Below, piece by piece: positions 10,487-59,200 of a stretch of 64,000 nt of DNA (position 1 is the stretch's first letter; each line of letters starts with the position of its first letter). Source of the DNA: a virus; the IMG/VR virus record IMGVR_UViG_3300027801_002586, positions 18,070 to 82,069 of that record. One strand, 5' to 3'. Below the pieces are notes generated by a model. The model did not search any database, was not told where the DNA came from, and worked only from the letters and a program-made list of their open reading frames with translations. The position numbers and the translations under genes were made by a program.

Positions 10487-10759
10487 ATGAATAATCAAGA
10501 ATTAGTAGATTTGATAGTAAAGACATTTGATGGTGTAATCATCGATGATTATGGTTGGGAACATTACACTATACCAAATAAGAAATATGATATTCGATTT
10601 GATGCATCTCGAATAGAATGGGCATGTGATTGTCCAGCATTTATGTACCGAAGAAAATTTAAGAAGAAGTATTGTAAACATATTATTGAGATACAGAGTA
10701 AAAAATTAGAACAACGGGTGGCAGATAGCAGAGGCCGTGCTGGTGCCAGAGTGGTCTAA
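10487..10759 (+). CDS. SWIM zinc-finger protein
   Basis: WACDCPAF...YCKHI. Confidence 0.75.
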   Translation: MNNQELVDLIVKTFDGVIIDDYGWEHYTIPNKKYDIRFDASRIEWACDCPAFMYRRKFKKKYCKHIIEIQSKKLEQRVADSRGRAGARVV

Positions 10760-10810
10760 TGGGGTGGATTGCAAATCCATTGTTCGTCGGTTCAAATCCG
10801 ACCCAGCACT
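10737..10810 (+). tRNA. tRNA-Cys(GCA)
   Basis: Acceptor GTGCTGG/CCAGCAC, anticodon arm GTGGA-TTGCAAA-TCCAT, T-arm GTCGG-TTCAAAT-CCGAC, U discriminator; CCA not encoded. Confidence 0.93.
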
Positions 10811-10833
10811 CAAAATATAAACGGAGATGAAAA

Positions 10834-13486: not shown

Positions 13487-13601
13487 AAAAATAAAATCCA
13501 TTTTGGGTAAACTTCGTAATATGTATTTTATGTACCAATACGGAAAACACTTACAAAAACGAATCGAGAAAAACGATTTCGGAAGGAGACCTGAATATTA
13601 A
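13479..13601 (+). CDS. 40-aa hypothetical protein
   Basis: ATG 13479 in the frame of track ORF 13332..13601; coupled to the next gene. Confidence 0.45.
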   Translation: MIEKIKSILGKLRNMYFMYQYGKHLQKRIEKNDFGRRPEY

Positions 13602-14083
13602 TGCAAACATTTTTACCATATAGTGATTTTGAAAAATCAGCCAAAGTATTAGATTGGCGTAGACTTGGTAAACAACGAGTTGAGGGTATGCAGATTTTAA
13701 ATGCTATCGAACAGAAACCAAGAAAAGATGGGAAACCATATAAGGGGTGGGTTAATCATCCTTGTAGTGTTATGTGGAAAGCATATGTACCAGCATTAAA
13801 ACACTATACTAATATTATTATTACAGAGTGGATTAATCGTGGATACAATAACAATATGAAATTCTATGCTGTTGATGATTTAGTAATACCACATTGGATA
13901 GGTGATGAGCGAATACATTCATCACACAGAGCTAACCTATTAAGAAAAGATTTTGAGTGGTATGGACAGTATGGTTGGGATGAAGGTCTCAAAGATGTAG
14001 AAACTGCACCCTATGTGTGGCATGATATTGAGGGTAAGTTTTATGAACAATTGATAGGAACGGGAGTTAGAAACTATTTATGA
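13601..14083 (+). CDS. pyrimidine-dimer DNA glycosylase/endonuclease V-like (MSMEG_6728 type)
   Basis: MQTFLPY, LDWRRLGKQRVE, GWVNHP..MW, HSSHRANLLRKD. Confidence 0.85.
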   Translation: MQTFLPYSDFEKSAKVLDWRRLGKQRVEGMQILNAIEQKPRKDGKPYKGWVNHPCSVMWKAYVPALKHYTNIIITEWINRGYNNNMKFYAVDDLVIPHWIGDERIHSSHRANLLRKDFEWYGQYGWDEGLKDVETAPYVWHDIEGKFYEQLIGTGVRNYL

Positions 14084-14889: not shown

Positions 14890-15230
14890 GGGGCTGCTTG
14901 GTATCGACAGGTGTTATTTGACACTTGGGTGCAACGGAGTTTGAACAAGACTCGCTACAAAAGGTTCACTTTGATTAATTGGCACACAAGCTAATTTAAC
15001 TTACGCTTACGCGTAACATCTTACTTATGACACCGATAGTAAGATAAGATGTCGACATCGGTAGACCACTCTTTTTATAGGTTGGAGTTAAACTTAATCT
15101 TTCAGTTAAGCCATTCTGTGTAAAATGGTGAAGTGGGTTGGAGATAACTACTTATTTGGAATCTCACTAAGTTGTGAATGACCCTTTGGAAAAAGCAGAC
15201 TGGACGCGGGTTCGACTCCCGCCAGCTCCA
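14890..15230 (+). ncRNA. ssrA: tmRNA
   Basis: 5' GGGGCTG..GGTATCGAC; 3' GCGGGTTCGACTCCCGC-CAGCTCC-A; G3:U70 Ala identity; tag frame 14981-15016 GTQANLTYAYA*. Confidence 0.93.
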
Positions 15231-15264
15231 CAAAACAATAAAAAATGAAAAGGTTATATTTAAA

Positions 15265-16201: not shown

Positions 16202-17821
16202 ATGAAAAAATGGTTTTATGAGAGAAGTAAGTTCTCTGAGTTTAAATCAAATACGACTTATCATAAGTTGTTAGAGATGTCAGTAGAGGATTTCAATGAG
16301 TGGGCACGATTGCTAAGACAAGAAGTAACTACTCAATGGGATGAGTATGGAACACCACCTGTAATCGGTAGAGATGAAGATGGTATTATTCAAAAATTCA
16401 AAAAATTAAAAGACAATCCTTGTAATTATTTAATTGAAGATAATACTGGTGATGATGAATCACTTGGTATAATTAAAAACTTCAATAAAGATGCAAGTAG
16501 TGTTAATCAATTCTTCCCAACAATGTTAAAAACAAAAATCAGTATTGGTGCATCAGCCGATAATGGATTATCTATATACGACCACTTTGGTGACCCAGAG
16601 TTAGAAGATAAGTTTGTTCACATTATGCGTAGAGCAGTAAAGAAAGATTCTATGTATAGTTGGAGTAGAAGTATTGTAACCAAGAAAGATGAGAATCCAT
16701 TTTGGAATGGACAGACTGGTAAAGAGTTTATTAGAGATGTACACGAGGGTAAAGTGTTTACTGGTAAATACAAAGATACAGGTATTGTACTTGCAAGAGT
16801 AAAAGAAAATACTGTCGGTAATTATGGTACAATGAATGAAGAGTTTAAAGGACATGGAAATGTTTATTTAACTGCAGAGGAAGTACAAGAGTGTAAAGAT
16901 AGTGGTTACTTGAATGATACACAATTAAGTAACATACCAGATATAGTTTCAAGCGAAACGAGTAAGACTGGTAATGTAACTAAGTTCTTATATTTGATTA
17001 GACATTATGACAAAACTATCGGAATCTTTCCAAAGATATTACAAGTGTTTAGATTAGCGTGTGGACAACCTGCAGTAAACTTTCCACCATTAACTGCTAA
17101 ACTTTTGTATGAAAAATTTACAAATCATATAGAAAATCAAGAACAAAAATTTCATATCTATGACCCATCCGCAGGTTGGGGTGGTAGAATATTAGGAGCA
17201 ATGAGTTCTCGTAAGAATATTCATTATGTAGGTACAGACCCTAACCCAGATAACTTAGGTAGATATCAAGCAGTTGCTGATTTCTATAATAGTAATTGTG
17301 TTGATGATTTTTCTGATAACTTCAATAAGTTTTTTGATGTAGAGAAACAATCAAACACGTATGAAGTATTTAGTGATGGGAGTGAATTAATATCTAACAA
17401 TCCAGCATTTCAAAAATATAAAGGTAAGTTGGATGTAGTATTTACTTCGCCACCATACTTTAATCGTGAACAATATTCCCAAGATGAGAATCAGTCGTTC
17501 AAAGCCTATAGTGAGTATCAAGACTGGAGAGATAACTTCTTAGAACCCACTTTACGAACTGCGTATGAGTATCTCAAACGAGATAGATATATCCTTTGGA
17601 ACATCGCTAGTATAAAGATAGGAGCAAATACCTACTATGATTTAGAGGGTGATAGTAGAAAAATATTAGAAGAGCTTGGTTGTGAGTATAAAGGAAAGCT
17701 AAAAATGTTAATGACAAGGATGATTGGCTTAGACCCAAGTAAGACTGGAATATTAAATTCAGTACAATATGATAATAATGTTTATAAATTTGAACCTATA
17801 TTTGTGTACTATAAAAGATGA
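16202..17821 (+). CDS. amino-type (m6A/m4C) DNA methyltransferase with large unknown N-terminal domain
   Basis: YDPSAGWGGR (SAM motif I), FTSPPYF (motif IV). Confidence 0.8.
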   Translation: MKKWFYERSKFSEFKSNTTYHKLLEMSVEDFNEWARLLRQEVTTQWDEYGTPPVIGRDEDGIIQKFKKLKDNPCNYLIEDNTGDDESLGIIKNFNKDASSVNQFFPTMLKTKISIGASADNGLSIYDHFGDPELEDKFVHIMRRAVKKDSMYSWSRSIVTKKDENPFWNGQTGKEFIRDVHEGKVFTGKYKDTGIVLARVKENTVGNYGTMNEEFKGHGNVYLTAEEVQECKDSGYLNDTQLSNIPDIVSSETSKTGNVTKFLYLIRHYDKTIGIFPKILQVFRLACGQPAVNFPPLTAKLLYEKFTNHIENQEQKFHIYDPSAGWGGRILGAMSSRKNIHYVGTDPNPDNLGRYQAVADFYNSNCVDDFSDNFNKFFDVEKQSNTYEVFSDGSELISNNPAFQKYKGKLDVVFTSPPYFNREQYSQDENQSFKAYSEYQDWRDNFLEPTLRTAYEYLKRDRYILWNIASIKIGANTYYDLEGDSRKILEELGCEYKGKLKMLMTRMIGLDPSKTGILNSVQYDNNVYKFEPIFVYYKR

Positions 17822-18504
17822 TAATAATTAAAGCAAACTCACCAACAGATGCTTGGATACAATCACACGAGTATCTTTTAGCAAATGGTAACAAAGATGT
17901 GATGAATGAAAGTATTAATATGTCGGTAGAGATAGAAGATAACTTCGATGTCGATATAAAATTTGATGGAGTATTCAGAGAAATCTTTGGTGATGATAGA
18001 ATAGATTATGCAAGTTCAGTTACATTTGTTAAACCAACAGAACATCCGTTTATGGATGAGTTACAATACAAACAGAATGATATCAAAGTAAAGTGGAATA
18101 AAACTTATTGGGGTAGAATGATTAATTGGGATAATAGTTTTAATCAAATAGAACAAGTTATTAAAAGATTAAAAGAACATAAGAATAGTAAAACAATTGC
18201 AATGAGTATCTATGACCCAAAATCAGATGGTAGAAAAACTATGAGTGGAATGCCATGTTTATTATCGATAGATTTAAAACCACGAAAAGATGGATTGTAT
18301 TTAACAGCATTCTTTCGTAGTATGAGAATTAGTAAAAGTGGTTATGCTGATTGGATGGCGTTGTGTGAATTAGGTAAGTTCTTATGTGAACAAGCAAATT
18401 TAAAATTAAAACGAGTTACCACAATTGGCGGTTCGGTACATATTGGGGATATGAATAACGAAAAGAAAAATGTGAGGGAGTTGCTTAGTGTGTGGAATAG
18501 TTAG
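17818..18504 (+). CDS. divergent thymidylate synthase / dCMP hydroxymethylase-like protein
   Basis: YWGRM, NQIEQVI, catalytic MPC, FRS...D, SVHI. Confidence 0.8.
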   Translation: MIIIKANSPTDAWIQSHEYLLANGNKDVMNESINMSVEIEDNFDVDIKFDGVFREIFGDDRIDYASSVTFVKPTEHPFMDELQYKQNDIKVKWNKTYWGRMINWDNSFNQIEQVIKRLKEHKNSKTIAMSIYDPKSDGRKTMSGMPCLLSIDLKPRKDGLYLTAFFRSMRISKSGYADWMALCELGKFLCEQANLKLKRVTTIGGSVHIGDMNNEKKNVRELLSVWNS

Positions 18505-19993
18505 TACTATTGGTTATACAGAAGATGATGTAGAGGTGATGTTACAGGAGATTGAACATCGAGGTAGAGACAACAGAGAAATTTATCAGAGTGGTAATGT
18601 TATACTTGGACATAATCGTTTAAGTATTAATGATGTTAGTTCAGATGGGAATCAACCATTCGTATGGAATGATTATGCACTTGTAGTTAATGGTGAGATA
18701 TGGAACTATCCACAATTAAGAAAAGAATATGAAGAACGAGGTTATAGATTTTTTAGTAATAGTGATTCGGAAATAATTTTATATTTGTATAAGGAGAATG
18801 AGTTACCAAGATTAGATGGTATGTTTAGTTTTGCACTACACGATACAATGACTAATCAATTAATTCTATCGAGAGATTGGGTTGGTAAGATACCATTATA
18901 TATTTACAATAATGATACGAATATTATAGTAGCATCTGAAATGAAATCCATACTAAAAATATTACCACAAGCAGAATGTAAGTTTGTACCAAAAAATTCG
19001 GTGGTTACAATAGGAACTGAAACTGGAACAATACATATTGAGAAAGATTATTATTTTAGTTTTTCGAAATATGAAGTAAAAGAATTTGACCAAGATGAAG
19101 TGAATAAAAAAACATATGAGTTATTGGATAACGCTATTGAAAAAAGATTATTAAGTGATGTTAAGGTTGCAACTTGTTTGAGTGGTGGAATTGATTCAAG
19201 TGTGATTACTTATTTGTTAAGTAAGAAAGTACCTGATATAGTATCTTATACAGTCAAGTTCGATGAAGATTCAAGAGATTTAATGTTTGCAAGAATGGTT
19301 GCAAAACATATTGATGTACCATTGGTTGAGGTTGAGATACCAAGAGACCCAGAAGAAATAAAAAGAAAATTTTTAGAAACAATTAGGGTTATAGAATATC
19401 CATCAACAGTCCAAATGGAAGTTGGTATTTTACAAAGTTATGTTGCAGAACAAATGGCAAAGGATGGGGTTAAGGTTGCGTTTAGTGGTGAAGGTTCTGA
19501 TGAGGCGTATGGTTCATATGGTATGGTAAGAATGTTCAGTAAGAAACCTGACTGGAGTGATGTAAGAAAAAAGATGTTTGAAAAACAATACTATGGTAAT
19601 TTACTTCGTGGTAATAATATTTTTATGAACTATGGAACAATCGAATTAAGATGTCCATTCTTCGATTTGGATTTTTTAAATTACACCACAAACTTGAATC
19701 AGCCAGTATTGGATAATGGTGGTAACCAATGGAAGAAACCACTTGCTGAAGCATTTCGTGGCCACTTACCAGATGAAGTATGTGACCAAGAGAAAAGAGC
19801 ATTTCAAAAGGGAACAAACTTTAAAGACTATATAGAAGATTTAATTCTTAATGATAGAGATTTAAATTTTAGAAATAGAAAAAAACTATTTCATTGTATA
19901 GGAGATAACTTTGAAAAAATATTTGGTTTCAAACATAAAGGTATGAGAGATACTTTGAGTGGAACTGAAAGTGGATTTAATAAATGGGCATGA
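18488..19993 (+). CDS. asparagine synthetase B-like glutamine amidotransferase
   Basis: N-terminal MCGI, HRGRD, GHNRLSI, NGEIWN, LSGGIDSS, SGEGSDE. Confidence 0.92.
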   Translation: MCGIVSTIGYTEDDVEVMLQEIEHRGRDNREIYQSGNVILGHNRLSINDVSSDGNQPFVWNDYALVVNGEIWNYPQLRKEYEERGYRFFSNSDSEIILYLYKENELPRLDGMFSFALHDTMTNQLILSRDWVGKIPLYIYNNDTNIIVASEMKSILKILPQAECKFVPKNSVVTIGTETGTIHIEKDYYFSFSKYEVKEFDQDEVNKKTYELLDNAIEKRLLSDVKVATCLSGGIDSSVITYLLSKKVPDIVSYTVKFDEDSRDLMFARMVAKHIDVPLVEVEIPRDPEEIKRKFLETIRVIEYPSTVQMEVGILQSYVAEQMAKDGVKVAFSGEGSDEAYGSYGMVRMFSKKPDWSDVRKKMFEKQYYGNLLRGNNIFMNYGTIELRCPFFDLDFLNYTTNLNQPVLDNGGNQWKKPLAEAFRGHLPDEVCDQEKRAFQKGTNFKDYIEDLILNDRDLNFRNRKKLFHCIGDNFEKIFGFKHKGMRDTLSGTESGFNKWA

Positions 19994-20829
19994 TAGAAAC
20001 ACCAATAGAAACCTATAAACTAAGTGGTATTGATGTAGATGTTAAACGAGATGATTTAGTTGGTGATGGTATTAATTATCCACGATGGGCAAAGATAGAT
20101 GGTATCCGAAGAATATTAGAGAGTGCTGATATAGATAAAACAAAACCACTAACACATTTATCAGTATATGGAAGTTGGACAGGTTGGGTACTGAGTGGTT
20201 TATGTAAAGAATATGGAATAGAATTTATTTCTGCTTATCCAGATACCCAAAGGTTTCCACAAATATTATTAGAAAGAGTTGTGGGTAATGGGGGAACTCT
20301 ACATCCTATGAGACCCAACATGATGGCGTTTATGCAAAATAAATTAAACACCCAAGCAAAAGAAAATGGTTGGCAACAATTACCATACGCGTTTAATCAT
20401 CCAGCATATATTAATTACATGGGTGAGAGAATGAAACAAGTTTTAGAAGAAAATGAATATGATAATCTTATAGTTAGTATCGGAAGTGGTGTTACTGCAA
20501 GTGGATTAATAAAAGAGTTTTTAGAATACAATGATGATTGGTGGAAATTATCTGCCAAATCAAAAAAAGTTTATTCAATCACGATGAGTGCATTCTCATC
20601 AACAAAAAAGATTTTAAATGAGAATCACGCAGGTGATTTAAAAAACATACTACTCGAAAAATCACCATATGCATTTGATGATATGATGGATGACTATAAA
20701 GTACCATTTGATTGTAACGAATTTTGGGACAAGAAACAATGGTATTGGTTAGAGAATAATATACAGAACTTAAAAGGTAAAACCTTATTTTGGAATATCG
20801 GCGGTTCTTATTTAAATTCAATAAAATGA
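19990..20829 (+). CDS. PLP-dependent fold-type II enzyme (ACC deaminase/D-Cys desulfhydrase-like)
   Basis: ETP...VKRDDL..G..RWAK, SIGSGVTASG, FWNIGG; ATGA overlap at 19990. Confidence 0.8.
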   Translation: MIETPIETYKLSGIDVDVKRDDLVGDGINYPRWAKIDGIRRILESADIDKTKPLTHLSVYGSWTGWVLSGLCKEYGIEFISAYPDTQRFPQILLERVVGNGGTLHPMRPNMMAFMQNKLNTQAKENGWQQLPYAFNHPAYINYMGERMKQVLEENEYDNLIVSIGSGVTASGLIKEFLEYNDDWWKLSAKSKKVYSITMSAFSSTKKILNENHAGDLKNILLEKSPYAFDDMMDDYKVPFDCNEFWDKKQWYWLENNIQNLKGKTLFWNIGGSYLNSIK

Positions 20830-20868
20830 AAAAAACACTTGACTTGTATGGGCAAAAAGCCTTATATT
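20829..20868 (+). promoter_or_regulatory. early promoter, copy 7
   Basis: TTGACT(20839-20844)-TGTATGGGCAAAAAGCCT-TATATT(20863-20868). Confidence 0.8.
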
Positions 20869-20901: not shown

Positions 20902-21675
20902 ATGAAGAGTTTAACAGCAGAAAAAATACAAGAGAATTACAACTCACTGCGAAATATTATCACTATGAATTTCTCGGGTGAACGACTTGAGAAATTAAAT
21001 AAGATGTATGATTATTTCGAGGATAGGATGATGTTAGCACCAGCAAGTGCAAAGGAACATTATCACAATGCTATGGTGGGTGGATATGTAGAACACGTAT
21101 TACACATTGTAGATTTTTCACAATCAGTAAAAAAGTTGTGGGAAGAAAAGGGAGCAGAAATTGATTTTACAGATGAAGAATTAATCTTTGCTGCATTACA
21201 TCACGACTTAGGTAAAGTAGGTAATTTAGATTATGATTACTATATACCAAATGAATCAGATTGGCATAGGAAGAATCAAGGTAAGATTTATACACACAAC
21301 CCTGAATTACCTTATATGACAGTAACGGATAGAGCATTTTATTTACTTCAACATTTTCAAATACCTTTAACAGAAAACGAATATATGGGTTTAATGTTAA
21401 CAGATGGGATGTATGAAGATGCAAATAAAAAATACTTAATGACGTTCTTACCAGAGACTGGATTACGAAGTCATATATCACGAATATTACACCAAGCAGA
21501 TATGATGGCAACATTTATAGAATCTGATGAATGGAAGCGTGGAGATAAAAAAGAAACTAAACGAGTTGCTAAATCAGTTGGTAACATCAAAAATGCAGTT
21601 GCAACAGAAGTTGATACTAAACTCAAAGGTGAAAATGCTAAAGAGTTATTTAACGAGTTGTTTGGAGATAAATAA
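20902..21675 (+). CDS. HD-domain phosphohydrolase
   Basis: HYHNA..GGYVEH, HHDLGK, HQAD. Confidence 0.88.
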   Translation: MKSLTAEKIQENYNSLRNIITMNFSGERLEKLNKMYDYFEDRMMLAPASAKEHYHNAMVGGYVEHVLHIVDFSQSVKKLWEEKGAEIDFTDEELIFAALHHDLGKVGNLDYDYYIPNESDWHRKNQGKIYTHNPELPYMTVTDRAFYLLQHFQIPLTENEYMGLMLTDGMYEDANKKYLMTFLPETGLRSHISRILHQADMMATFIESDEWKRGDKKETKRVAKSVGNIKNAVATEVDTKLKGENAKELFNELFGDK

Positions 21676-21935: not shown

Positions 21936-22658
21936 ATGCCACCAAAAGCAAAAAAGACATCACCACGATATTACTTTCATCAAGGAACTGAAGATGCAAT
22001 CGTCAGATTGAATAAAGAAACTCGTGCTCATATGAAACAACGAATTTACAATGAACATATTCGCACACCATTTGAGAAACTTGCTGAGAATATAATTCAT
22101 ACATTTAAATTTTATTACTTTGATGTTCCATCGGATGATGTGAAACACGAAGTGGTATCATTCTTATATATGAACATCCACAAATTTGCTGAAGGTAAGG
22201 GAAAAGCTTTTTCATACTTTAGTATTGTTGCTAAGAATTATTTAATTTTACATAACAACAATAACTACAAGAAGATGAAACAACATGATTCTGAAGATGT
22301 AATGGATTATAAAAGAGACCCTGTCGGAGAACTTCGAGGTAAGGAATCTAAATCTATGGCAATGGAATATATAGAACAACTTGCGGATTATTGGAGAAAT
22401 AATTTAACAACAGTCTTTAAACGAAAGAAAGATTTGGATGTTGCTAATTCTGTAGTGGAGTTAATTGATATGAGACATAATATTGATAACTTTAATAAGA
22501 AAGCATTATACATTCTTATTCGTGAGATGACGGGTTCTAATACACAACACATTACTCGTGTAATTAATGTGATGAAGAAACATCATAATAATCTACACAA
22601 GGCTTATGTAGCTACTGGTTCAGTTGATACTAAACGAACTGGTAGTTGGTTTGAGTGA
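21936..22658 (+). CDS. phage sigma factor (T4 gp55-like late sigma)
   Basis: Region-2-like KFAEGKGKAFSYFSIVAKNYLI. Confidence 0.7.
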   Translation: MPPKAKKTSPRYYFHQGTEDAIVRLNKETRAHMKQRIYNEHIRTPFEKLAENIIHTFKFYYFDVPSDDVKHEVVSFLYMNIHKFAEGKGKAFSYFSIVAKNYLILHNNNNYKKMKQHDSEDVMDYKRDPVGELRGKESKSMAMEYIEQLADYWRNNLTTVFKRKKDLDVANSVVELIDMRHNIDNFNKKALYILIREMTGSNTQHITRVINVMKKHHNNLHKAYVATGSVDTKRTGSWFE

Positions 22659-23467
22659 AACTCTATAAACAAGATTGGGATTATCGGAAAATAAATACCG
22701 ATGAATATCCACAATTAAAAGCGATTACATCACAACCAAATTCTTTTTGGATAATAAGTAATCCTAAAAAACCACTCAAACGAGTTACAACAAGAATACG
22801 AAGATTATGTAGAAGAGCACATCCATACCAACCTATTATAGTTTTATATGCTATACCTGGTAGAGATGTAGGTGGACATTCAAAGGGTGGGTTATCTGAT
22901 AAACAATATATAAAATATATTGGAGATATTGCAAAAGGTATTGGTTCATATAAACCAATAGTAATATTCGAACCTGATGCTATTCCACATATGAGAAGGA
23001 TGAATTTCTTTCAACGAACAAGTCGAACAAGGTTAATCAGAAAATCTTTAAAACTCTTATCACAATGTAGTGCACAAATTTATCTTGATATAGGACATCC
23101 CAATTGGTTAAAGGTTGGAGATGCGTCTACTTATTTAAATCTTTTTAATGATAATAAGATAAAAGGCTTTTCAGTTAATGTAAGTAACTTTGTTACTACG
23201 GATAAATGTATTCGATGGGGTGATAAAGTTTCCGATAGAACCGATTTAAATTATATTATAGATACATCAAGGAATGGTACTGAAGTATGGGAAACCTTTA
23301 ATCCAGAAGAAATGAAACTTGGAGAAAAACCAACAATCAGAACTTCATCAAGAAGTTGTGATGCTTATCTTTGGATTAAAACACCAGGTGAAAGTGATGG
23401 TGCCGTAAATGGTTGGCCTAAAGCTGGTAGATTTGATGCTGAAAAAACCTTATCTCTTATAAACTAA
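22655..23467 (+). CDS. glycoside hydrolase family 6
   Basis: YAIPGRD..GHSKGG, EPDA, YLDIGHPNW, GFSVNVSNF, IDTSRNG, DAYLWIKTPGESDG. Confidence 0.9.
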   Translation: MKLYKQDWDYRKINTDEYPQLKAITSQPNSFWIISNPKKPLKRVTTRIRRLCRRAHPYQPIIVLYAIPGRDVGGHSKGGLSDKQYIKYIGDIAKGIGSYKPIVIFEPDAIPHMRRMNFFQRTSRTRLIRKSLKLLSQCSAQIYLDIGHPNWLKVGDASTYLNLFNDNKIKGFSVNVSNFVTTDKCIRWGDKVSDRTDLNYIIDTSRNGTEVWETFNPEEMKLGEKPTIRTSSRSCDAYLWIKTPGESDGAVNGWPKAGRFDAEKTLSLIN

Positions 23468-53295: not shown

Positions 53296-56200
53296 ATGGC
53301 AATCTTAAAGAGAATCAACAAATATCAAGGTTTAAAGGATATAGATATACTTGTCGAAGAGACTGGGTTAACTTCCCAATACTTTCAAGTTTACGATTTT
53401 CCAAACCAAATACCACAAGGTAAATCATCATTCTTAGTTGCAGGTTCACCTTTCTTAGCAGACAATGTAGAACTTAAAGTTGAAATATTAGATGCGGGTG
53501 GGAACACTGTCTATACTGAAGCAATAACAAATTATCTTGAGGGTGGTGCACGCCGTGTATCAATAGAGGTATATGATGATGTTATACCTGGTGATGGTTT
53601 TATGTATATTGTTGGGGAACTTAAAACTAACTATCAACAGATATCAGGTTTAGAAAACAACAATGATGAAATAACTGATTCTCAGATAACCGACCCTAAA
53701 AGTTTTGGAAACATTAATCCAGCTAATTTATCCGAAGAATTTATAGACCAACTTACTGCACAAAATGCTCAAGATGTTCCAACAGAATTTCAAGGTGTTT
53801 ATAATGTACGATATGTAAGACCAATTTTTATTAATGCGGCATTACCTAATTCACAACCAATTTTCTTTTATCAACAACCAAGAGTAACTGTCACAGAAGT
53901 TGTTAAACCTTTTATAGAACAATTAGCACCAAGTGGTTCAGTTGTATTGAGTGGTAGTATTGAAGCAAATCCTGCTCCAGATTTAACACCACTACCAGCA
54001 CCAATTGCTCCACCACCAGGATTTCCAAAGAATCCAACAGCAGAGGGATTGGGTCAGATTGGACAAATAAATGAAATATTTAAATCAAGTAAAAAATCAA
54101 AATCAAATCCATTTAGAAATTCTGGGTTTAGGTCAAGGGGGAGATTAGTAAGAAGGTCATCACCTGAACAAGATAGATTCTCAATGAGAGTACACCAACT
54201 TGAAGAATCAAATGAAACCACAAAGGATAAGGCATCGAGTGCATTAATTGGTGCAACTCTAACTATTAAATCACCAAAAATTGATTTAGTTAAATATCCA
54301 GCAGAAGAGTTTGATGTACCTACTTCATTCCATACAAGTATTAAAAAAGTTTTAAATGAAGAAACGATTGTACCAGTAGATGATTTCTTTATTACAAGAA
54401 AAGATACATTAGAAAAAATACCAGTTCCAATTATAGCAGACGAGGTTGCTGGGAATGGACAATCTGAAGTTACAATGTCTTATACACCTTTTCCTGAACA
54501 ATCACTTAGTGCAACACATAATCGTTCTTTTGCTGATGTAACAGTCGCAAACCTACGAACATTTAGTGGGGATGTTTACAAGACAAAAATTTATGGAAAG
54601 AGTCAAGGTTCACTTGGAGATTTTGAATTACTACATGAGGGTACAATCGAATCCCCACAAACTTTAATAGACCCATATAGTGTAGATGGATTTTTAAATA
54701 TAGGTTATTTTCATACTCAAAGTATTGTTGATAATTATTGGTTGTTAAATGGTGGTACTGCTGCAAGAAATGATAGTAAGATTTTAGATGGTATTGAGAT
54801 TAGTGGTTCAAACTATGCAGTAGGTTCATCAGTTGAACTTACAACATCGGGTAGTTTTGCATTAGAAAAGGGTGTACCTTATTCAATTACTTTTAATGCA
54901 CATTATTTCAAGGAAGATAAAGTACAAGATAACGATGATGTAGAAAAAGATTTTGAGTTAGATGTATTGGTATCGGAAGCAGCATTAATAGGTGGTACTT
55001 TATCCGATACATATCAATCAGTAGGTAAAGTAGATATAGGGAATAATAACTTAAATGAGGGTTCAATACCAGGTATTTATACTACGTTCATAACGCCGAG
55101 TGATATTGGTCCAACTCTTAAATTAAAATTTAAATTAAATGCTGGTAGGGCAATTATAAATGATGTAGTTGTACGACCACACGCAGAAACAAACTTTAAT
55201 CCAGATTACTTTAGGGTAGTACTTCCGATGGCATATCCATTACCCAAACAACCAGATTTATATGATTTCTTAGTAGAGTTTTATGATGTAAATAATAATA
55301 TTGCAGAAACATTCACGATAGGTCAAAACATAGAATTTACAGGTGCACCATTAAATATCGATGGTGAGGATAACTTACTTAGTGGTTCATTATACATTGG
55401 TTCTACACAAGGTAGTGGTTTTGAGATGGCAGGAGTATCTTCTGCATTCTTACGGTCTATTGGATATAATGGGTTTGACAGAACAATTGCAGAAAGTAAG
55501 GGTGGATTTTTATTGTGGAGTGGTTCTATCGGGGATAGATTAACTGCAAGTGAAGATTATGATGGAGTTGGGTTAGAGATAGTAGATGCTCATACTTCAC
55601 AAGATAGATATTTAAAATTTAGAACAAACCCAAGCACATTTGAAGTTGTTACCGACCAGTTCTTCTTAGGACAAGCTGGTAGTTCTTTTGTAAGTGGTTC
55701 AAATGGTAACATCGAAATATTCTCATCAGGTACTACAACATTAAGTGGTAGTAATGTAGATATTTTAACACCTAATTTTTTCTTAGGTGGTTCGAGTGCA
55801 TTTGTAAGTGGTAGTGGTGGTAATATAGAAATAAGTTCAAGTAATTTCCATGTCACTCCAGAGGGTAATGTTACAATGAGTGGTGATATTACTGCAAACG
55901 CTGGTTTCATCGGTGATTGGGCAATTGTAGATGGTCAGATAAGTGGTAGTAACATTACATTAAATGCTGATAATTCTACAATATTTAAAACAGACCAAGG
56001 GCCTGGCAGTGATTCATCAGCAGCATTTGATGCATTAAGAGATGAGTATTATATAGATTTTACACCGACCGAAGAATCTCCAAATAACTATTATATTAAA
56101 ATGGGCCCAAGTTTTATGGTGGATAAGGATGGTATCTTAATCGCAAGTGGTGCAACATTTGAGGGAAGTATTACTGCATCAGAAGGTTTAATTGGTGGGT

Positions 56201-59200
56201 TCACTACAGATAGTCATTCATTCCATAGTAACAATATTTTCATAAGTGGTTCACCCGCAATTGGTGGAGTTGACCATCCACGATATATGTTTATCTCATC
56301 TTCAAATTTCAATGTAAAAGAAAATGGGGATATAACTGGTTCAAGTGCTTTATTTGATGGTAACACAAGTATATCAGGAACTACTACTATTGGTGGAAAT
56401 TTAACTGTCAATGGTACAGGTACGATTGCATCATTTGGTTTAACAGAAACTGCAATATCAAGTTCTAACGATAAATTAATATTGAAATCAAGTGGAGAAA
56501 TAACTTCATCTGCTGCTAGGATTGTTGGTAGTGATGTAGATATAGATGTTGAGAAATTCGAATTAGATGCTAATAATTTAGAAATATCTTCTACACATTC
56601 ATCTATGAGTTTAGGTGAGGGTAAGATAGATTTAGTTGGTGGTTCTACTTCATTTATACAAGTTGGTTCTGCAAATGCAATAACATTGAAAGATGATGGA
56701 ACTGATAGGTTTTTGGTTATTGGAAGTAAAACATCTTTCTCACATTTCAACCAATCTACCGCAGGAGTAATTTTAGGTACAGATGGTGGAACTACAAAAT
56801 TTGAAGTAGTTGGAGATGCATCTAATTACATTTCTTTTAACGGAACAGCATTTGATATCAAATCAGAAGAATTTGGATTAAAGACTTCAACACTACACAT
56901 ATCATCATCTAATGGTGGTGTGATTGCTATGGGTTCTACAATACCACAAAAAGTAGAACAGGCTGGAATATTTTTAAGTGGTAGTGGACAATTTAGTTTC
57001 TACTCATCATCACGAGGACATATAGTATTCGATGGTACAGATTTTAAAATTGCCTCAAAGAATTTAACAATAGATACATCAACACTTGATATTAATACTG
57101 CGGGTGGTGGTAACATTGCACTTGGTAGTGGAACACCATCATTAAGTGCTGCAGGTATTTTCCTAAGTGGTAGTGGAGATTTTAATTTCCAAAAAGATGG
57201 AAATAACTTTATAAGACAGAGTGGTGGAGCATTCCAAATAAAAGCAGATACTTTTGATTTAGATGCTACAACACTCATTATGGATAGTGCTGGTGATAGT
57301 GGAAATGGAATAATTAGATTGGGTGCAAGTGGAGGCCCATCTAGTCCAACAAATGGTACTGCTGGTATTTATATGGATGGGGGTGGAGCACTTAATGTTG
57401 TAGGAAATGCTACAAACTTCTTTAGGGTAGATGGTGGTTCATTTACGATTAAATCCGATACATTTGATTTACAAACCACAACCTTTTCTGCATCATCTGC
57501 AGGTACTGGTAAGATTTCACTTGGACAAACACCACCTACAAGATACGATAGTGGAAATGGTATATTCTTTGATGGAGATGCTAACTTCCTAATCGGTAGT
57601 GCAAGTGGAGATAAGATACAATTTACCAATGGTGATTTTACAGTCCAAGTTGGTTCATTAGAATTGGATGCAAGTAATATAGAGATTAGTTCAACGAACG
57701 CTTCTATGTCATTGGGTGAGGGTAATATTATACTTGATGGTGCTAACAATAAAATTAAAGTTGGTAAAACTACTAATAAATTAATTGAGATTGTAGGTTC
57801 ATCTACACAAGGATACATTGCAACAGGTAAAGATTCCGCTACATCTACAACCGCAGGATTTTGGTTAGCAAACAATAACACAGACCCAGAATTTGCAGTT
57901 GGAGATTCTACAGATTTTATTAGATTTAATGGTGGTAACTTAGATATTAATTCTCAAAAACTTGAGATTGCAGCATCCACATTACAATTATCCACAACCG
58001 AAGCAAGTATGAGTCTTGGACATAATGCACAAAGTGGTTCTTATGGTAGAGTTATATTAGAGGGTGCAGGAGTACCAACATTAAGAATTGGAAAACAAGC
58101 ACACACCATTACACTTGCAACTGGTAGTGGTATTTATATGGATGGTGATGGTAACTTTAGATTTGGTGATGATGATGGTGGTATAAAATTTAATAATGGT
58201 AATTTCTCAATTACTGGTTCTGATGTAGATATTGATGTAACAGATATTAATATTACTTCGACTGGATTTAGATTATCATCCACAAATGCTTCGATGTCGT
58301 TAGGTACAAACGACCAATTATTAGTACACGCCAATAGTTCAAGTCCATTTTTAAGTATTGGACAATCTACAAAGGGTTACGGACAAACAGGAATATTTCT
58401 TGGGTATATAAATTCAGTATCAAGACCACGAGTTTCGTTTGTTGGTTCAACGGGTCATTTTAAAGTTGACCAAGATGTTGATATAAAAACAGAAACATTT
58501 GAAATGGATGCGAATAGTGGTGATTTACAAATATCAAGTGCTCATAAATCAATGTCATTGGGAGACCAATCTATTGTACTTGATGGGCCAAACAAAAAAA
58601 TAACAGTCGGTACGGGTAATCAGATTAGTATCGTGGGTGGAGCATCAGATAACTTTATTACTATGGGTAGTAAAACGGGTATGGATAGTACTCAAGGTAG
58701 TGGAACTGCAGGTATCATTATTGGGATGGATGGAAGTAATCCACAAGCTGAATTTGTAAAAAGTGCAACCGAATATTTTATATACGATAATGGTATAGAT
58801 ATGAAAACACTTAACTTTGAGTTAGATGCGGGTACAGGAGATTTACAAATATCATCAGCACAAAAATCAATGAGTTTGGGTGATGGTAATGTAATATTAG
58901 ATGGATTAGAAAAAGCAATTATACTTAATTCAGGTAGTAATTCGATTACTTTACAAACTAATGCTACTGATTCATTTATGGTAATGGGTAGTAAGACAAG
59001 TTTTACAGAAGAGGGTAGTGGAACTGCTGGAATATTAATTGGAATGGATGGAAGTAATCCACAAGCTGAATTTGTTAAGAGTGCTACTGATTACTTTATA
59101 TTTGATGATGGTTTAGATATAAAAACTACTAAACTTGAATTGGATGCTGGTTCATTACAATTATCTAATACACATAATTCTATGAGTTTAAGCCCTGATA

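What the first reader, a model, noticed from the sequence alone, without database searches (positions are those of the whole stretch)
16202..20829. Candidate new DNA base-hypermodification operon: MTase + cytosine-type TS homologue + AsnB amidotransferase + PLP enzyme
Seen: four genes with overlapping starts and stops (ATGA at 17818 and 19990, overlap at 18488), closed off by an early promoter at 20839. Known: TS-fold enzymes (T4 gp42) make C5-modified pyrimidines. PLP enzymes tailor amino-acid adducts in phage ViI/M6 thymidine hypermodification. AsnB-type enzymes amidate a carboxylate using ATP and Gln. Inference: the set builds a modified base, likely a cytosine with an amide- or amine-bearing side chain. 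No 5-hmU DNA kinase or amino-acid:DNA transferase is visible in this window, so the chemistry would differ from the known routes. The roughly 290-aa unknown N-terminus of the MTase may take part.
Basis: partly seen in the sequence, partly recalled or inferred. Interest (0 to 1): 0.88.

Follow-up and report, generated by a model that had tools for sequence, protein, structure and literature searches.

The report
Undescribed phage cytosine hypermodification cassette
An uncultured marine phage carries a compact, widely conserved enzyme set whose three core members are each related to an enzyme proven to modify bases in phage DNA, so it probably builds a modified cytosine that nobody has yet described.

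Summary
The four overlapping genes are real. Three of them form a conserved cassette: a rewired thymidylate-synthase-fold enzyme, an AsnB-type amidotransferase and a PLP enzyme.

In 52 related viral loci with enough flank, the TS-like gene has an AsnB/PP-loop gene nearby in 51. It has the PLP enzyme or a B12 radical-SAM enzyme nearby in 52.

Each core protein has a characterised DNA-modification relative:
- TS-like: MilA and the phage dCMP hydroxylase AfhB.
- AsnB: CmoY, the ligase that amidates DNA 5-carboxymethylcytosine.
- PLP enzyme: phage M6 gp52, which decarboxylates amino acids attached to DNA.

The known starter enzymes are absent. These are 5-hmU DNA kinase, amino-acid transferase, CmoA and CmoX.

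The methyltransferase is a backbone gene. Close relatives keep MTase-HD with no cassette or with other cargo. Even so, fusions and bacterial MTase/TS/PP-loop/radical-SAM operons hint at a link.

The product and the order of steps are inferred, not shown. My searches found no paper describing this set. The scan has already reported the same module on other DNA.

The parts
16202..17821 (+). Amino-type (N6-A/N4-C class) DNA methyltransferase-like protein, 539 aa. The catalytic domain spans about residues 290-539 (motif I DPSAGWG, motif IV TSPPYF). The N-terminal ~290 aa has no known family. It is a backbone gene of this phage lineage and only possibly a partner of the cassette.
   Evidence: PF01555, 29 bits; PADLOC MTase_II, 1.3e-8; family invariants DxSxGWGxR, FTSPPYF..E.Y..QS; present without the cassette; N-terminus: no named relatives.
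17818..18504 (+). Short TS-fold enzyme, 228 aa. It keeps the catalytic Cys147 and the cytosine-type Asp178. At the folate-contacting Asp169 position of ThyA it has Arg, and at the Leu143 position it has Gly. Predicted C5 modifier of (d)CMP with a non-standard cosubstrate.
   Evidence: TIGR03283, 82 bits, below its cut-off; pLDDT 93.
18488..19993 (+). AsnB-type glutamine-hydrolysing, ATP-dependent amidotransferase, 501 aa, GTG start, N-terminal Met-Cys. It is a CmoY-like adenylating amide former carrying a glutaminase domain. The Thr-Thr-Ile-Arg segment of E. coli AsnB is replaced by Val-Gln-Met-Glu.
   Evidence: with 118, 120, 121.
19984..20829 (+). Fold-type II PLP enzyme of the phage M6 gp52 family, 281 aa (alternative start at 19990). 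Lys37 and the loop G167-S-G-V-T171 are invariant.
20839..20868 (+). Sigma-70-like hexamer pair TTGACT-18-TATATT in the 72-nt gap before the HD gene. It is a pattern match only.
   Evidence: matches are not enriched over shuffles.
20902..21675 (+). HD-type phosphohydrolase-like protein, 257 aa. It is a backbone neighbour that directly follows the MTase in relatives lacking the cassette. It is not part of the conserved triad.
   Evidence: (phrog_28876, 3.3e-12).

Best explanation
Genes 17818-20829 are an accessory three-enzyme cassette for making a hypermodified cytosine in the phage DNA. It sits between a backbone DNA methyltransferase and an HD hydrolase.

Inferred steps:
1. The TS-fold enzyme attacks C6 of a cytosine nucleotide (probably dCMP) with Cys147. 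It recognises cytosine through Asp178 and puts a new substituent on C5. Its cosubstrate is probably not handled as in folate-dependent TS, because the folate-contacting Asp is replaced by Arg or Ala.
2. The modified nucleotide is built into DNA.
3. The AsnB-like enzyme adenylates a carboxyl group on the modified base. Like CmoY, it then converts that group to an amide, here a primary amide using ammonia from its own glutaminase domain.
4. The M6 gp52-type PLP enzyme tailors an alpha-amino-acid-like part of the side chain, most likely by decarboxylation to a primary amine.

The methyltransferase family may act on the same DNA, but the cassette can come and go without it. The homologies, the conservation and the absence of known starter enzymes are shown. 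The substrate, the order of steps, whether steps occur before or after replication, and the product are all inferred.
For: Conservation. Of 52 non-redundant viral loci with a whole TS-like ORF and at least 3 kb downstream, 51 have an AsnB/PP-loop gene within 6 kb. The 52nd, L069, has a 208-aa member of the same cluster. The PLP enzyme is present in 49 and a B12 radical-SAM enzyme in 4; all 52 have one or the other. TS-like identity to the window falls as low as 41-52%, and contigs reach 375 kb.

Context. In many loci the cassette lies between RNR/thioredoxin and DNA polymerase B.

TS-like. The AF2 model has pLDDT 93. The top Foldseek hits are MilA and the phage HY126 dCMP hydroxylase AfhB, E about 1e-11 to 1e-10 and TM about 0.7. 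The family profile hits the same two at E about 2e-8. Cys147 and Asp178 are invariant in 30 of 30 sequences. PMC13326640 sections 24 and 28 show that TS homologues with N177D act on dCMP and that changing Asp169 changes the chemistry. Complete related genomes carry a true ThyA (G004, E 1.1e-90) or ThyX (G003, E 1.6e-46) as well as the TS-like gene.

PLP enzyme. It is 27% identical to M6 gp52 over the full length, E 4e-26, with Lys37 aligned to gp52 Lys36 and a shared C-terminal PF.CN...W.WL...FWNIG signature. gp52 decarboxylates DNA-bound C-alpha-glycinylthymidine (PMC8989533 section 19).

AsnB. The Met-Cys start, the PP-loop and SGEGSDE are kept, but the TTIR segment is lost. It is homologous to SpCmoY at E 1e-8. 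The PP-loop-only proteins that replace it in other cassettes match SpCmoY at 99.4% probability, E 6e-22. SpCmoY ligates glycine to DNA 5-carboxymethylcytosine, and a glutaminase-bearing CmoY cluster is predicted to use ammonia (PMC12783734 sections 11 and 13). The best isolate-phage hit of the window's AsnB is TurkishDelight gp124. It lies between a CmoX homologue (E 4e-74) and a CmoA homologue (E 2e-22).

Fusion. P0127 joins the TS-like domain to the B12 radical-SAM domain in one 676-aa protein.
Against: No chemistry was measured, and no virion DNA or isolate exists.

No single scheme uses both the AsnB and the PLP enzyme without extra assumptions. An amidation and a decarboxylation of the same alpha-carboxylate would compete.

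Nothing in the cassette is known to install a carboxyl group. The TS-fold enzymes characterised so far add CH3, CH2OH or OH.

The Arg at the Asp169 position is not invariant; it is Arg or Ala across the family.

In bacterial MAG loci the TS-like gene sits in MTase/TS/PP-loop/radical-SAM operons behind ParB-like genes. That layout fits sequence-specific post-replicative modification better than whole-pool replacement of dCMP.

The same MTase family is flanked in other phages by AsnB, PALP, GNAT, dioxygenase-like and dehydrogenase genes without any TS-like gene. The MTase rather than the TS-like enzyme may therefore be the hub.

The 52 loci are not independent lineages. I did not count lineages formally; by eye there are roughly eight to ten architectures or groups.

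Absence of starter enzymes rests on single-sequence or single-Pfam searches of five records, of which three are at least 95% complete.
Confidence: 0.6

Rival explanations
1. A methyltransferase-centred, post-replicative pathway. The SPPY methyltransferase-like enzyme flips out a base in DNA and transfers a group from SAM or a SAM analogue (methyl, carboxymethyl or aminocarboxypropyl). The AsnB, PLP and radical-SAM enzymes tailor that group on DNA. The TS-like enzyme has a side role, such as making or recycling a nucleotide or cofactor.
For: An MTase of this family lies within 6 kb of the TS-like gene in 46 of 52 loci and directly upstream in 37 of 52. All 3 bacterial MAG loci have MTase-like directly upstream of the TS-like gene. 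In the 2 whose upstream genes were analysed (L076, L078), ParB-like genes lie upstream. L070 carries a radical-SAM::MTase fusion whose MTase part matches the family at 97.6%. Other phages pair the same MTase family with AsnB, PALP, GNAT, cupin-dioxygenase-like and 2-hydroxyacid dehydrogenase genes and no TS-like gene. All of these enzymes suit an amino-acid-like side chain. M6 gp52 and CmoY both act on DNA, not on nucleotides.
Against: The long MTase occurs in at least 551 viral stretches. In 76 of 78 loci examined it has no TS-like gene in the fetched flanks, so it works without the cassette and looks like an ordinary DNA MTase. It leaves a conserved Cys/Asp TS-fold enzyme without a role. The TS-like gene sits among nucleotide-metabolism genes. 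No evidence shows that the MTase binds anything other than SAM.
Confidence: 0.17
2. The cassette makes a modified free nucleotide or nucleoside rather than a DNA base. Examples are a MilA/bacimethrin-like antimetabolite, a signalling molecule, or a poison of the host nucleotide pool.
For: The best sequence and structure match of the TS-like enzyme is MilA, a CMP hydroxymethylase of nucleoside-antibiotic synthesis. The GGSVH segment resembles MilA's VGSVH, so CMP is not excluded as substrate.
Against: The closest characterised relatives of the two partner enzymes act on DNA. The cassette lies between RNR and DNA polymerase genes. It associates with DNA MTases and ParB-like proteins. No glycosidase, transporter or other antibiotic-type gene was seen in the loci examined.
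Confidence: 0.08
3. The genes are unrelated auxiliary metabolic genes that merely sit together. On this view AsnB makes asparagine, the TS homologue makes dTMP or 5-methyl-dCMP, the PLP enzyme degrades an amino acid, and the MTase protects DNA.
For: AsnB passes the NCBIfam TIGR01536 cut-off, 295 against 267 bits, and matches E. coli AsnB at E 1.5e-47. The closest complete relative (G001, 95% complete) has no other TS or ThyX.
Against: The triad is kept together across loci down to 41-52% TS identity. In 11 of the 52 loci AsnB is replaced by CmoY-like PP-loop-only proteins of about 300 aa. The TTIR segment of AsnB is not kept; that it is needed for aspartate activation is recalled, not tested. 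The protein falls below the AsnB equivalog cut-off, 268 against 499 bits. Asp178 is a cytosine-type residue. G003 and G004 carry ThyX or ThyA as well.
Confidence: 0.06
4. The enzymes modify RNA (tRNA or rRNA cytidine) rather than DNA.
For: PP-loop enzymes and SPPY/NPPY methyltransferases are common in RNA modification. The phage carries a tRNA and a tmRNA. CmoA itself was borrowed from tRNA modification (PMC12783734 abstract).
Against: TS-fold enzymes are not known to act on RNA (recalled). The nearest characterised relatives of AsnB and the PLP enzyme act on DNA. The cassette lies in the replication and nucleotide module.
Confidence: 0.04

Closest known systems
CmoA/CmoX/CmoY of Synechococcus phage S-B43: 5-carboxymethylcytosine and its glycine amide (Yang et al. 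2025, PMC12783734; abstract and sections 11 and 13 read)
   Same: An asparagine-synthetase-type ATP-dependent enzyme acts on a modified cytosine. The window's AsnB is homologous to SpCmoY at E 1e-8. The PP-loop-only variants match it at 99.4%. The paper predicts that glutaminase-bearing CmoY homologues make the primary amide. The window's AsnB is most like such a protein, TurkishDelight gp124, which sits between CmoX and CmoA homologues. ParB-like genes accompany both kinds of cluster.
   Different: No CmoA or CmoX homologue was found in the window's record or in four related records. A TS-fold enzyme stands where the carboxymethyl installer would be. A gp52-type PLP enzyme is added. The MTase here is an SPPY amino-type enzyme, not an SPPC C5-type.
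Thymidine hypermodification of Pseudomonas phage M6 and Salmonella phage ViI (Lee et al., PMC8989533; section 19 and passages read)
   Same: There is a TS-fold enzyme plus a gp52-family PLP enzyme. The PLP homology is full-length, E 4e-26, with the aldimine Lys aligned. Some cassettes also carry a radical-SAM gene next to the PLP gene, as M6 does.
   Different: The TS-like enzyme is cytosine-type (Asp178), not uracil-type. No 5-hmU DNA kinase (M6 gp54, PF18723) and no amino-acid transferase (M6 gp51) was found. The radical-SAM enzyme is a B12-class protein with no detectable similarity to M6 gp53. An AsnB enzyme is present.
Cytosine-specific TS-fold enzymes: T4 gp42 dCMP hydroxymethylase, MilA CMP hydroxymethylase, and the flavin-dependent 5-hydroxy-dCMP synthases RB69 gp48, DLP3 gp80 and HY126 AfhB (PMC13326640; sections 24 and 28 read)
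   Same: The fold, the catalytic Cys, and Asp at the ThyA Asn177 position are shared. The enzymes are small, and there is precedent for non-folate chemistry on this fold.
   Different: ThyA position 169 is Arg or Ala, where hydroxymethylases have Asp and hydroxylases have Asn. Position 143 is Gly or Lys rather than Asp or Glu. The family has extra invariant charged residues (R54, R61, D63, D152, K154, R156, K173, E215). The closest curated family is the methanogen-type short TS, TIGR03283, at 82 bits against a cut-off of 174.55. The enzyme is always paired with an AsnB/PP-loop gene.

Membership tests
Thymidylate synthase / dCMP hydroxymethylase superfamily (PF00303) | TS fold | tested here: met
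   PF00303 at E 1.7e-8, 34.4 bits against a cut-off of 24.3. AF2 model with pLDDT 93. Foldseek gives probability 1.00 to MilA, AfhB and many TS structures.
Thymidylate synthase / dCMP hydroxymethylase superfamily (PF00303) | Catalytic cysteine (ThyA Cys146) | tested here: met
   Pro146-Cys147 is invariant in 30 of 30 family members and aligns with the MilA catalytic segment.
dTMP-forming thymidylate synthase (ThyA) | Asn at ThyA position 177 (dUMP specificity) and Asp at position 169 (folate contact) | tested here: not met
   Position 177 is Asp178, invariant. Position 169 is Arg170 in the window and Arg or Ala across the family. The residue roles are taken from PMC13326640 sections 24 and 28.
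dCMP/CMP hydroxymethylase (T4 gp42, MilA) | N177D together with an acidic residue at ThyA position 143 and Asp169 retained | tested here: not met
   N177D is met. Position 143 is Gly144 (Gly, Lys or Ser in the family) and position 169 is not Asp. My register for position 143 was counted by eye from the PC motif.
Flavin-dependent 5-hydroxy-dCMP synthase (RB69 gp48 / AfhB) | D169N signature | tested here: not met
   The family has Arg or Ala at this position, whereas AfhB has Asn in the aligned RSQN segment.
Asparagine synthetase B (glutamine-hydrolysing) | N-terminal nucleophile Cys, PP-loop SGGxDS, SGEGSDE | tested here: met
   A Met-Cys-Gly start is seen in 8 of 8 full-length cassette AsnB representatives, excluding one misclustered TS-like ORF. 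SGGIDS and SGEGSDE are kept. TIGR01536 scores 295 bits against a cut-off of 267.
Asparagine synthetase B (glutamine-hydrolysing) | AsnB equivalog score and the Thr-Thr-Ile-Arg aspartate-activation segment | tested here: not met
   NF006949 scores 268 bits against a cut-off of 499. E. coli TTIR aligns with VQME (VQVE or VQQQ in relatives). The functional weight of this segment is recalled from the literature and was not checked here.
CmoY-type DNA base amide ligase | Homology to SpCmoY | tested here: met
   BLASTP gives E 1e-8 over the whole of SpCmoY. The PP-loop-only cassette family matches SpCmoY by hhalign at 99.4%, E 5.9e-22.
CmoY-type DNA base amide ligase | Partnership with CmoA (Cx-SAM synthase) and CmoX (C5 carboxymethyltransferase) | tested here: not met
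   No match to SpCmoA or SpCmoX in 5 of 5 records searched, 3 of them at least 95% complete. These were single-sequence searches.
M6 gp52 / ViI gp226 PLP-dependent decarboxylases of DNA-bound amino acids | Full-length homology with the aldimine lysine conserved | tested here: met
   27% identity, E 4e-26, residues 6-273 against 6-277. Lys37 aligns with gp52 Lys36. Lys37 is invariant in 18 of 18 sequences. The hit is PPM6_gp052.
M6 gp52 / ViI gp226 PLP-dependent decarboxylases of DNA-bound amino acids | Works downstream of 5-hmU DNA kinase and an amino-acid:DNA transferase | tested here: not met
   No match to M6 gp54, M6 gp51 or PF18723 in the 5 records, nor in any fetched locus.
M6 gp52 / ViI gp226 PLP-dependent decarboxylases of DNA-bound amino acids | PLP binding and decarboxylase activity on DNA | not testable with these tools
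   Only the fold and the conserved Lys and Gly-rich loop can be seen.
N6-adenine / N4-cytosine DNA methyltransferases (PF01555 class) | SAM-binding motif I and (S/N/D)PP(Y/F) motif IV | tested here: met
   DPSAGWG at residue 321 and SPPY at residue 416. Both are invariant in 23 of 23 family members. PF01555 scores 29 bits against 26.7. The target base and the transferred group are unknown.

The most novel reading that the evidence does not exclude
The TS-fold family is a third chemical type of cytosine C5 enzyme, neither hydroxymethylase nor hydroxylase. It installs a carboxyl-bearing or amino-acid-like handle on (d)CMP without the CmoA/CmoX or kinase/transferase starters. The AsnB and PLP enzymes then turn this handle into an amide- and/or amine-bearing cytosine that replaces C in the DNA of many uncultured marine and freshwater phages. 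The related MTase/TS/PP-loop/radical-SAM operons behind ParB-like genes in Ignavibacteria-type genomes would then be a cellular DNA-modification (restriction-modification-like) system built on the same chemistry.
Probability: 0.3. Interest if true: 0.85.

Novelty: new variant of a known kind. Interest (0 to 1): 0.74.

Why it matters
Phage DNA hypermodifications decide whether restriction enzymes, CRISPR and other defences can cut a phage. They have also given useful enzymes for epigenetic sequencing and DNA labelling.

This cassette combines relatives of three separately discovered pathways in an arrangement that none of them explains. It lacks every known enzyme that starts those pathways. 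If the reading is right, the cassette encodes a new natural DNA base and a new reaction on the thymidylate synthase fold.

It is not rare. The TS-like family was found in 60 viral contigs in one scan and in 123 protein clusters at 90% identity, including complete 289-kb and 376-kb phage genomes. The bacterial versions would extend it to cellular epigenetics.

The question is directly testable by expressing three or four genes in E. coli and running nucleoside LC-MS.

Tried and rejected
DNA-level search of the block against 50,697 phage records found no match. tblastn of the TS-like protein against the same records also found no match at 1e-5. No cultured phage can therefore be named as a carrier; records near the window may also be withheld.

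I could not look at the contexts of the individual homologues, and used the search for related loci for contexts instead.

The B12 radical-SAM protein of the cassettes shows no detectable similarity to M6 gp53. The HD protein shows none to M6 gp59. I dropped the idea that these two are M6-pathway orthologues.

The MTase N-terminal 290 aa gave only unnamed viral clusters below 0.9 in the Atlas search. The MTase family profile found nothing significant in the PDB; the best hit was an N4-cytosine MTase at E 0.17. PADLOC gave nothing beyond 'MTase_II' and a ZorA-like neighbour for the bacterial loci.

A search for Cj0600, the top structural neighbour of the PLP enzyme, found 0 papers. Iyer et al. 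2013 (PMC3763556) is not held, so I could not check whether that survey predicted this gene set.

The TS::AsnB 'fusion' in L073 (710 aa) begins its AsnB part at residue 13. It therefore lacks the N-terminal Cys. I do not count it as a clean fusion, since it may be a deletion or an assembly error.

I first thought the PLP lysine was replaced by Arg. The family alignment and the gp52 alignment show that the invariant Lys37 is the likely aldimine lysine.

I considered the sigma-70-like site at 20839 as an operon boundary and rejected it as evidence.

I did not run complex prediction, the look-up of sequencing runs or read laying. Supplementary files of the three papers were not opened. The supplements of PMC12783734 (ligase clusters) and PMC8989533 (co-associated amidotransferases) may already list relatives of this AsnB.

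Literature searches with 0 relevant hits. The CmoY paper was found only after a lead from the scan's earlier notes.

Full report
OBSERVATION. The window is part of an 82-kb IMG/VR viral record, estimated 45% complete. It has about 33% G+C and nearly all large ORFs lie on the + strand.

The four ORFs are as described: 16202-17821, 17818-18504, 18488-19993 (GTG start) and 19984-20829. Three overlaps are present. ATGA lies at 17818. A 17-nt overlap begins at 18488. ATGA lies at 19990, with an alternative ATG at 19984.

TTGACT-18-TATATT lies at 20839-20868. Such matches are no more frequent here than in shuffled sequence, 30 against 36.8 +/- 5.0. 'Early promoter' is therefore not established.

WHAT THE FOUR PROTEINS ARE.

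(1) The 539-aa protein is an amino-type DNA methyltransferase-like enzyme. PF01555 scores 29 bits against a cut-off of 26.7. Motif I is DPSAGWG and motif IV is TSPPYF. The N-terminal ~290 aa has no named relative.

(2) The 228-aa protein has the TS fold. The model has pLDDT 93. Its nearest solved structures are MilA (CMP hydroxymethylase) and the phage HY126 dCMP hydroxylase AfhB, and its family profile hits these two equally at E about 2e-8. The closest curated family is the methanogen-type short TS, TIGR03283, at 82 bits, well below the cut-off of 174.55.

In 30 family members Cys147 and Asp178 are invariant. ThyA position 169 is Arg or Ala, and position 143 is Gly, Lys or Ser. Lee et al. 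2026 (PMC13326640, sections 24 and 28) give three rules. Asp at position 177 marks dCMP enzymes. An acidic residue at 143 marks hydroxymethylases. Asn at 169 marks the flavin-dependent 5-hydroxy-dCMP synthases. This family fits the first rule and neither of the other two.

(3) The 501-aa protein is an AsnB-type amidotransferase. It has a Met-Cys start, the PP-loop SGGIDS and the SGEGSDE segment. It passes TIGR01536 but not the AsnB equivalog model. The Thr-Thr-Ile-Arg segment of E. coli AsnB is replaced by Val-Gln-Met-Glu.

(4) The 281-aa protein has no Pfam hit, but it models as a fold-type II PLP enzyme with pLDDT 88.7. Lys37 and a Gly-rich phosphate loop are invariant.

CONSERVATION. Pattern scans of IMG/VR with the TS-like protein and with its family alignment gave 74 viral loci. 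With the window's own region added, 65 were non-redundant.

Of these, 52 hold a whole TS-like ORF with at least 3 kb downstream:
- 51 have an AsnB or PP-loop-only gene within 6 kb. The remaining locus, L069, has a 208-aa member of the same cluster.
- 40 have a full-length AsnB and 11 have the PP-loop-only form.
- 49 have the PLP enzyme and 4 have a B12-class radical-SAM enzyme. All 52 have one or the other.
- 46 have an MTase of the same family within 6 kb, and in 37 it is directly upstream.

TS-like identity to the window falls to 41-52%, in contigs of up to 375 kb. The loci are not independent lineages, and I did not count lineages formally.

In many loci the cassette lies between the RNR subunits with thioredoxin on one side and DNA polymerase B on the other, beside RecA, a DnaB-like helicase and a 5'-3' exonuclease. 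In one group a dUTPase-like gene and a SAM lyase gene follow the PLP gene.

Two complete related genomes carry a true ThyA (G004, E 1.1e-90) or ThyX (G003, E 1.6e-46) as well as the TS-like gene. The TS-like enzyme is therefore not their dTMP source. The window's nearest large relative (G001, 95% complete) has neither, so this argument does not reach the window's own lineage.

THE METHYLTRANSFERASE IS BACKBONE, NOT CARGO. A scan with the MTase family alignment found at least 551 matching viral stretches, of which the best 80 were kept. Seventy-eight loci of that fetch were examined. Only 2 have the TS-like gene in the fetched flanks. By my reading of the listing, at least 13 loci with the full 10 kb on both sides lack it.

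Close relatives of the window's phage keep the neighbours g15579-MTase-HD-g21675-g21936 without the triad. In L087 the HD gene starts 21 nt after the MTase. In others the same slot holds different cargo:
- L080 has an Asp/Asn-hydroxylase-like cupin and a YunG-like protein.
- L089 and L124 have other PALP-family PLP enzymes.

In further phages the MTase family is flanked by AsnB with a GNAT (L115). In L119 it is flanked by an epimerase, AsnB, a 2-hydroxyacid dehydrogenase, a cupin and a PALP enzyme, with no TS-like gene.

The triad 17818-20829 is thus an accessory insertion. The MTase and its N-terminal domain work without it.

LINKS THAT STILL TIE THE MTASE FAMILY TO THE CASSETTE. Three metagenome-assembled bacterial genomes carry the TS-like gene. 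They are an Ignavibacteria bin, a Kapaibacterium bin and an unclassified bin with a 3.28-Mb contig.

The two loci analysed in detail have the order ParB-like, MTase-like, TS-like, PP-loop, B12 radical-SAM. One of them has a ZorA-like gene nearby.

Protein P0127 is a 676-aa fusion of the TS-like and radical-SAM domains. L070 encodes an 801-aa radical-SAM::MTase fusion whose MTase part matches the family profile at 97.6%. L002 is the closest relative of the window, with the TS-like protein 98% identical. It has the radical-SAM gene inserted between AsnB and the PLP gene.

LINKS TO KNOWN PATHWAYS.

The PLP enzyme hits 65 phage records, all M6/Yua-like and related phages. The M6 hit is gp52, with 27% identity over the full length, E 4e-26. 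Lys37 aligns with gp52 Lys36, and the two share a C-terminal signature. M6 gp52 is the PLP-dependent decarboxylase that converts DNA-bound C-alpha-glycinylthymidine to 5-aminoethyl-deoxyuridine. ViI gp226 does the same on O-serinylthymidine (PMC8989533 section 19).

The AsnB synthetase domain is homologous to SpCmoY of Synechococcus phage S-B43, E 1e-8. The PP-loop-only proteins of other cassettes match SpCmoY at 99.4%, E 5.9e-22. SpCmoY adenylates DNA 5-carboxymethylcytosine and ligates glycine. The authors predict that a second cluster of CmoY homologues, which carry a glutaminase domain, uses glutamine-derived ammonia (PMC12783734 sections 11 and 13).

The best isolate-phage match of the window's AsnB is Streptomyces phage TurkishDelight gp124, 32.5% identity over 91% of the length, E 2e-67. 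It sits between a CmoX homologue (E 4e-74) and a CmoA homologue (E 2e-22), behind two ParB-like genes. Another AsnB-like hit, in Achromobacter phage Motura, lies inside a 7-deazaguanine cluster. Phage AsnB relatives thus recur in DNA base modification clusters.

The starter enzymes of both known routes are absent. M6 gp51, M6 gp54, Pfam HMUDK_hel, SpCmoA and SpCmoX gave no match in the window's record or in four related records, three of which are at least 95% complete. These are single-sequence or single-model searches, so distant analogues could be missed.

MECHANISM. My best reading, at about 0.6, has four steps:
1. The TS-fold enzyme activates C5 of dCMP and adds a substituent using a cosubstrate that is not handled as in folate-dependent TS.
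2. The nucleotide enters DNA.
3. The AsnB enzyme adenylates a carboxyl group of the modified base and makes the primary amide with its own ammonia.
4. The gp52-type enzyme trims an amino-acid-like part, probably by decarboxylation.

The homologies, the conservation, the genomic setting and the missing starters are shown. Everything about substrate, order and product is inferred.

Three weaknesses stand out. No known TS-fold enzyme installs a carboxyl group. An amidation and a decarboxylation would compete for a single alpha-carboxylate. The bacterial ParB/MTase operons fit modification on DNA better than modification of the nucleotide pool.

The main rival, at about 0.17, makes the MTase-like enzyme the installer on DNA and the others tailoring enzymes. 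Smaller rivals are a free-nucleotide product, unrelated metabolic genes, and RNA modification.

NOVELTY. Five searches of the held library found no description of this gene set. The three papers that bear on it describe other pathways. The scan's own notes show that the same module has already been reported and followed up on several other genomes, with similar conclusions. One of those notes gave me the CmoY lead, which I then checked myself.

I rate it a new variant of a known kind, phage DNA hypermodification pathways. The TS-fold chemistry might be new in kind.

LIMITS. Supplementary files were not read. Residue equivalences to E. coli ThyA were counted from printed alignments and by eye.

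Noticed in passing
L076:5345-10975, L078:4755-10913, L077: Bacterial MAG chromosomes carry an operon of ParB-like, MTase-like, TS-like, PP-loop and B12 radical-SAM genes. The bins are Ignavibacteria, Kapaibacterium and an unclassified bin with a 3.28-Mb contig. In L078 a ZorA-like gene lies nearby on the other strand. This may be a cellular DNA-modification or defence system using the same core. L077 was not analysed in detail.
   Followed up: partly
protein P0127 (676 aa); L070:4486-6891: Two natural fusions exist: the TS-like domain joined to the B12-class radical-SAM domain (P0127), and radical-SAM joined to an MTase domain of the same family (L070).
   Followed up: partly
L080:9863-12478, L124:10224-14099, L089:6214-7194, L091:8174-10452: The slot between the backbone MTase and the HD gene is a variable cargo site in relatives. 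It holds an Asp/Asn-hydroxylase-like cupin with a YunG-like protein, other PALP enzymes, or unknown proteins. In L087 it holds nothing.
   Followed up: partly
L119:4440-13164, L115:4279-9849: Other viral contigs pair the same MTase family with different enzyme sets and no TS-like gene. L119 has an NAD epimerase/dehydratase, AsnB, a 2-hydroxyacid dehydrogenase, a cupin and a PALP enzyme. L115 has AsnB and a GNAT. These may be further undescribed modification clusters.
   Followed up: no
L161 (Streptomyces phage TurkishDelight, 89500-93518 of the record): This isolate phage has ParB-like, a CmoX homologue, a glutaminase-bearing AsnB-like gene and a CmoA homologue in a row. It is a culturable candidate for the predicted 5-carbamoylmethylcytosine branch of the CmoY family.
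   Followed up: partly
L047:12008-13242: In one freshwater group a dUTPase-like gene and a SAM lyase gene directly follow the PLP gene of the cassette.
   Followed up: no
window 14890-15231 and 10737-10811: A phage-encoded tmRNA with tag GTQANLTYAYA, and a tRNA-Cys.
   Followed up: no
window 13601-14083 and 22655-23467: A pyrimidine-dimer DNA glycosylase (DenV-like, PF03013, E 1.1e-22) and a glycoside hydrolase family 6 protein (PF01341, E 1.3e-40) flank the region.
   Followed up: no
window 53296-63999: An open reading frame of at least 3568 aa runs off the end of the window.
   Followed up: no
L033:1-12587: A complete 376-kb phage genome carries six paralogues of the SPPY MTase family around its TS-like / PP-loop / PLP cassette.
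   Followed up: no
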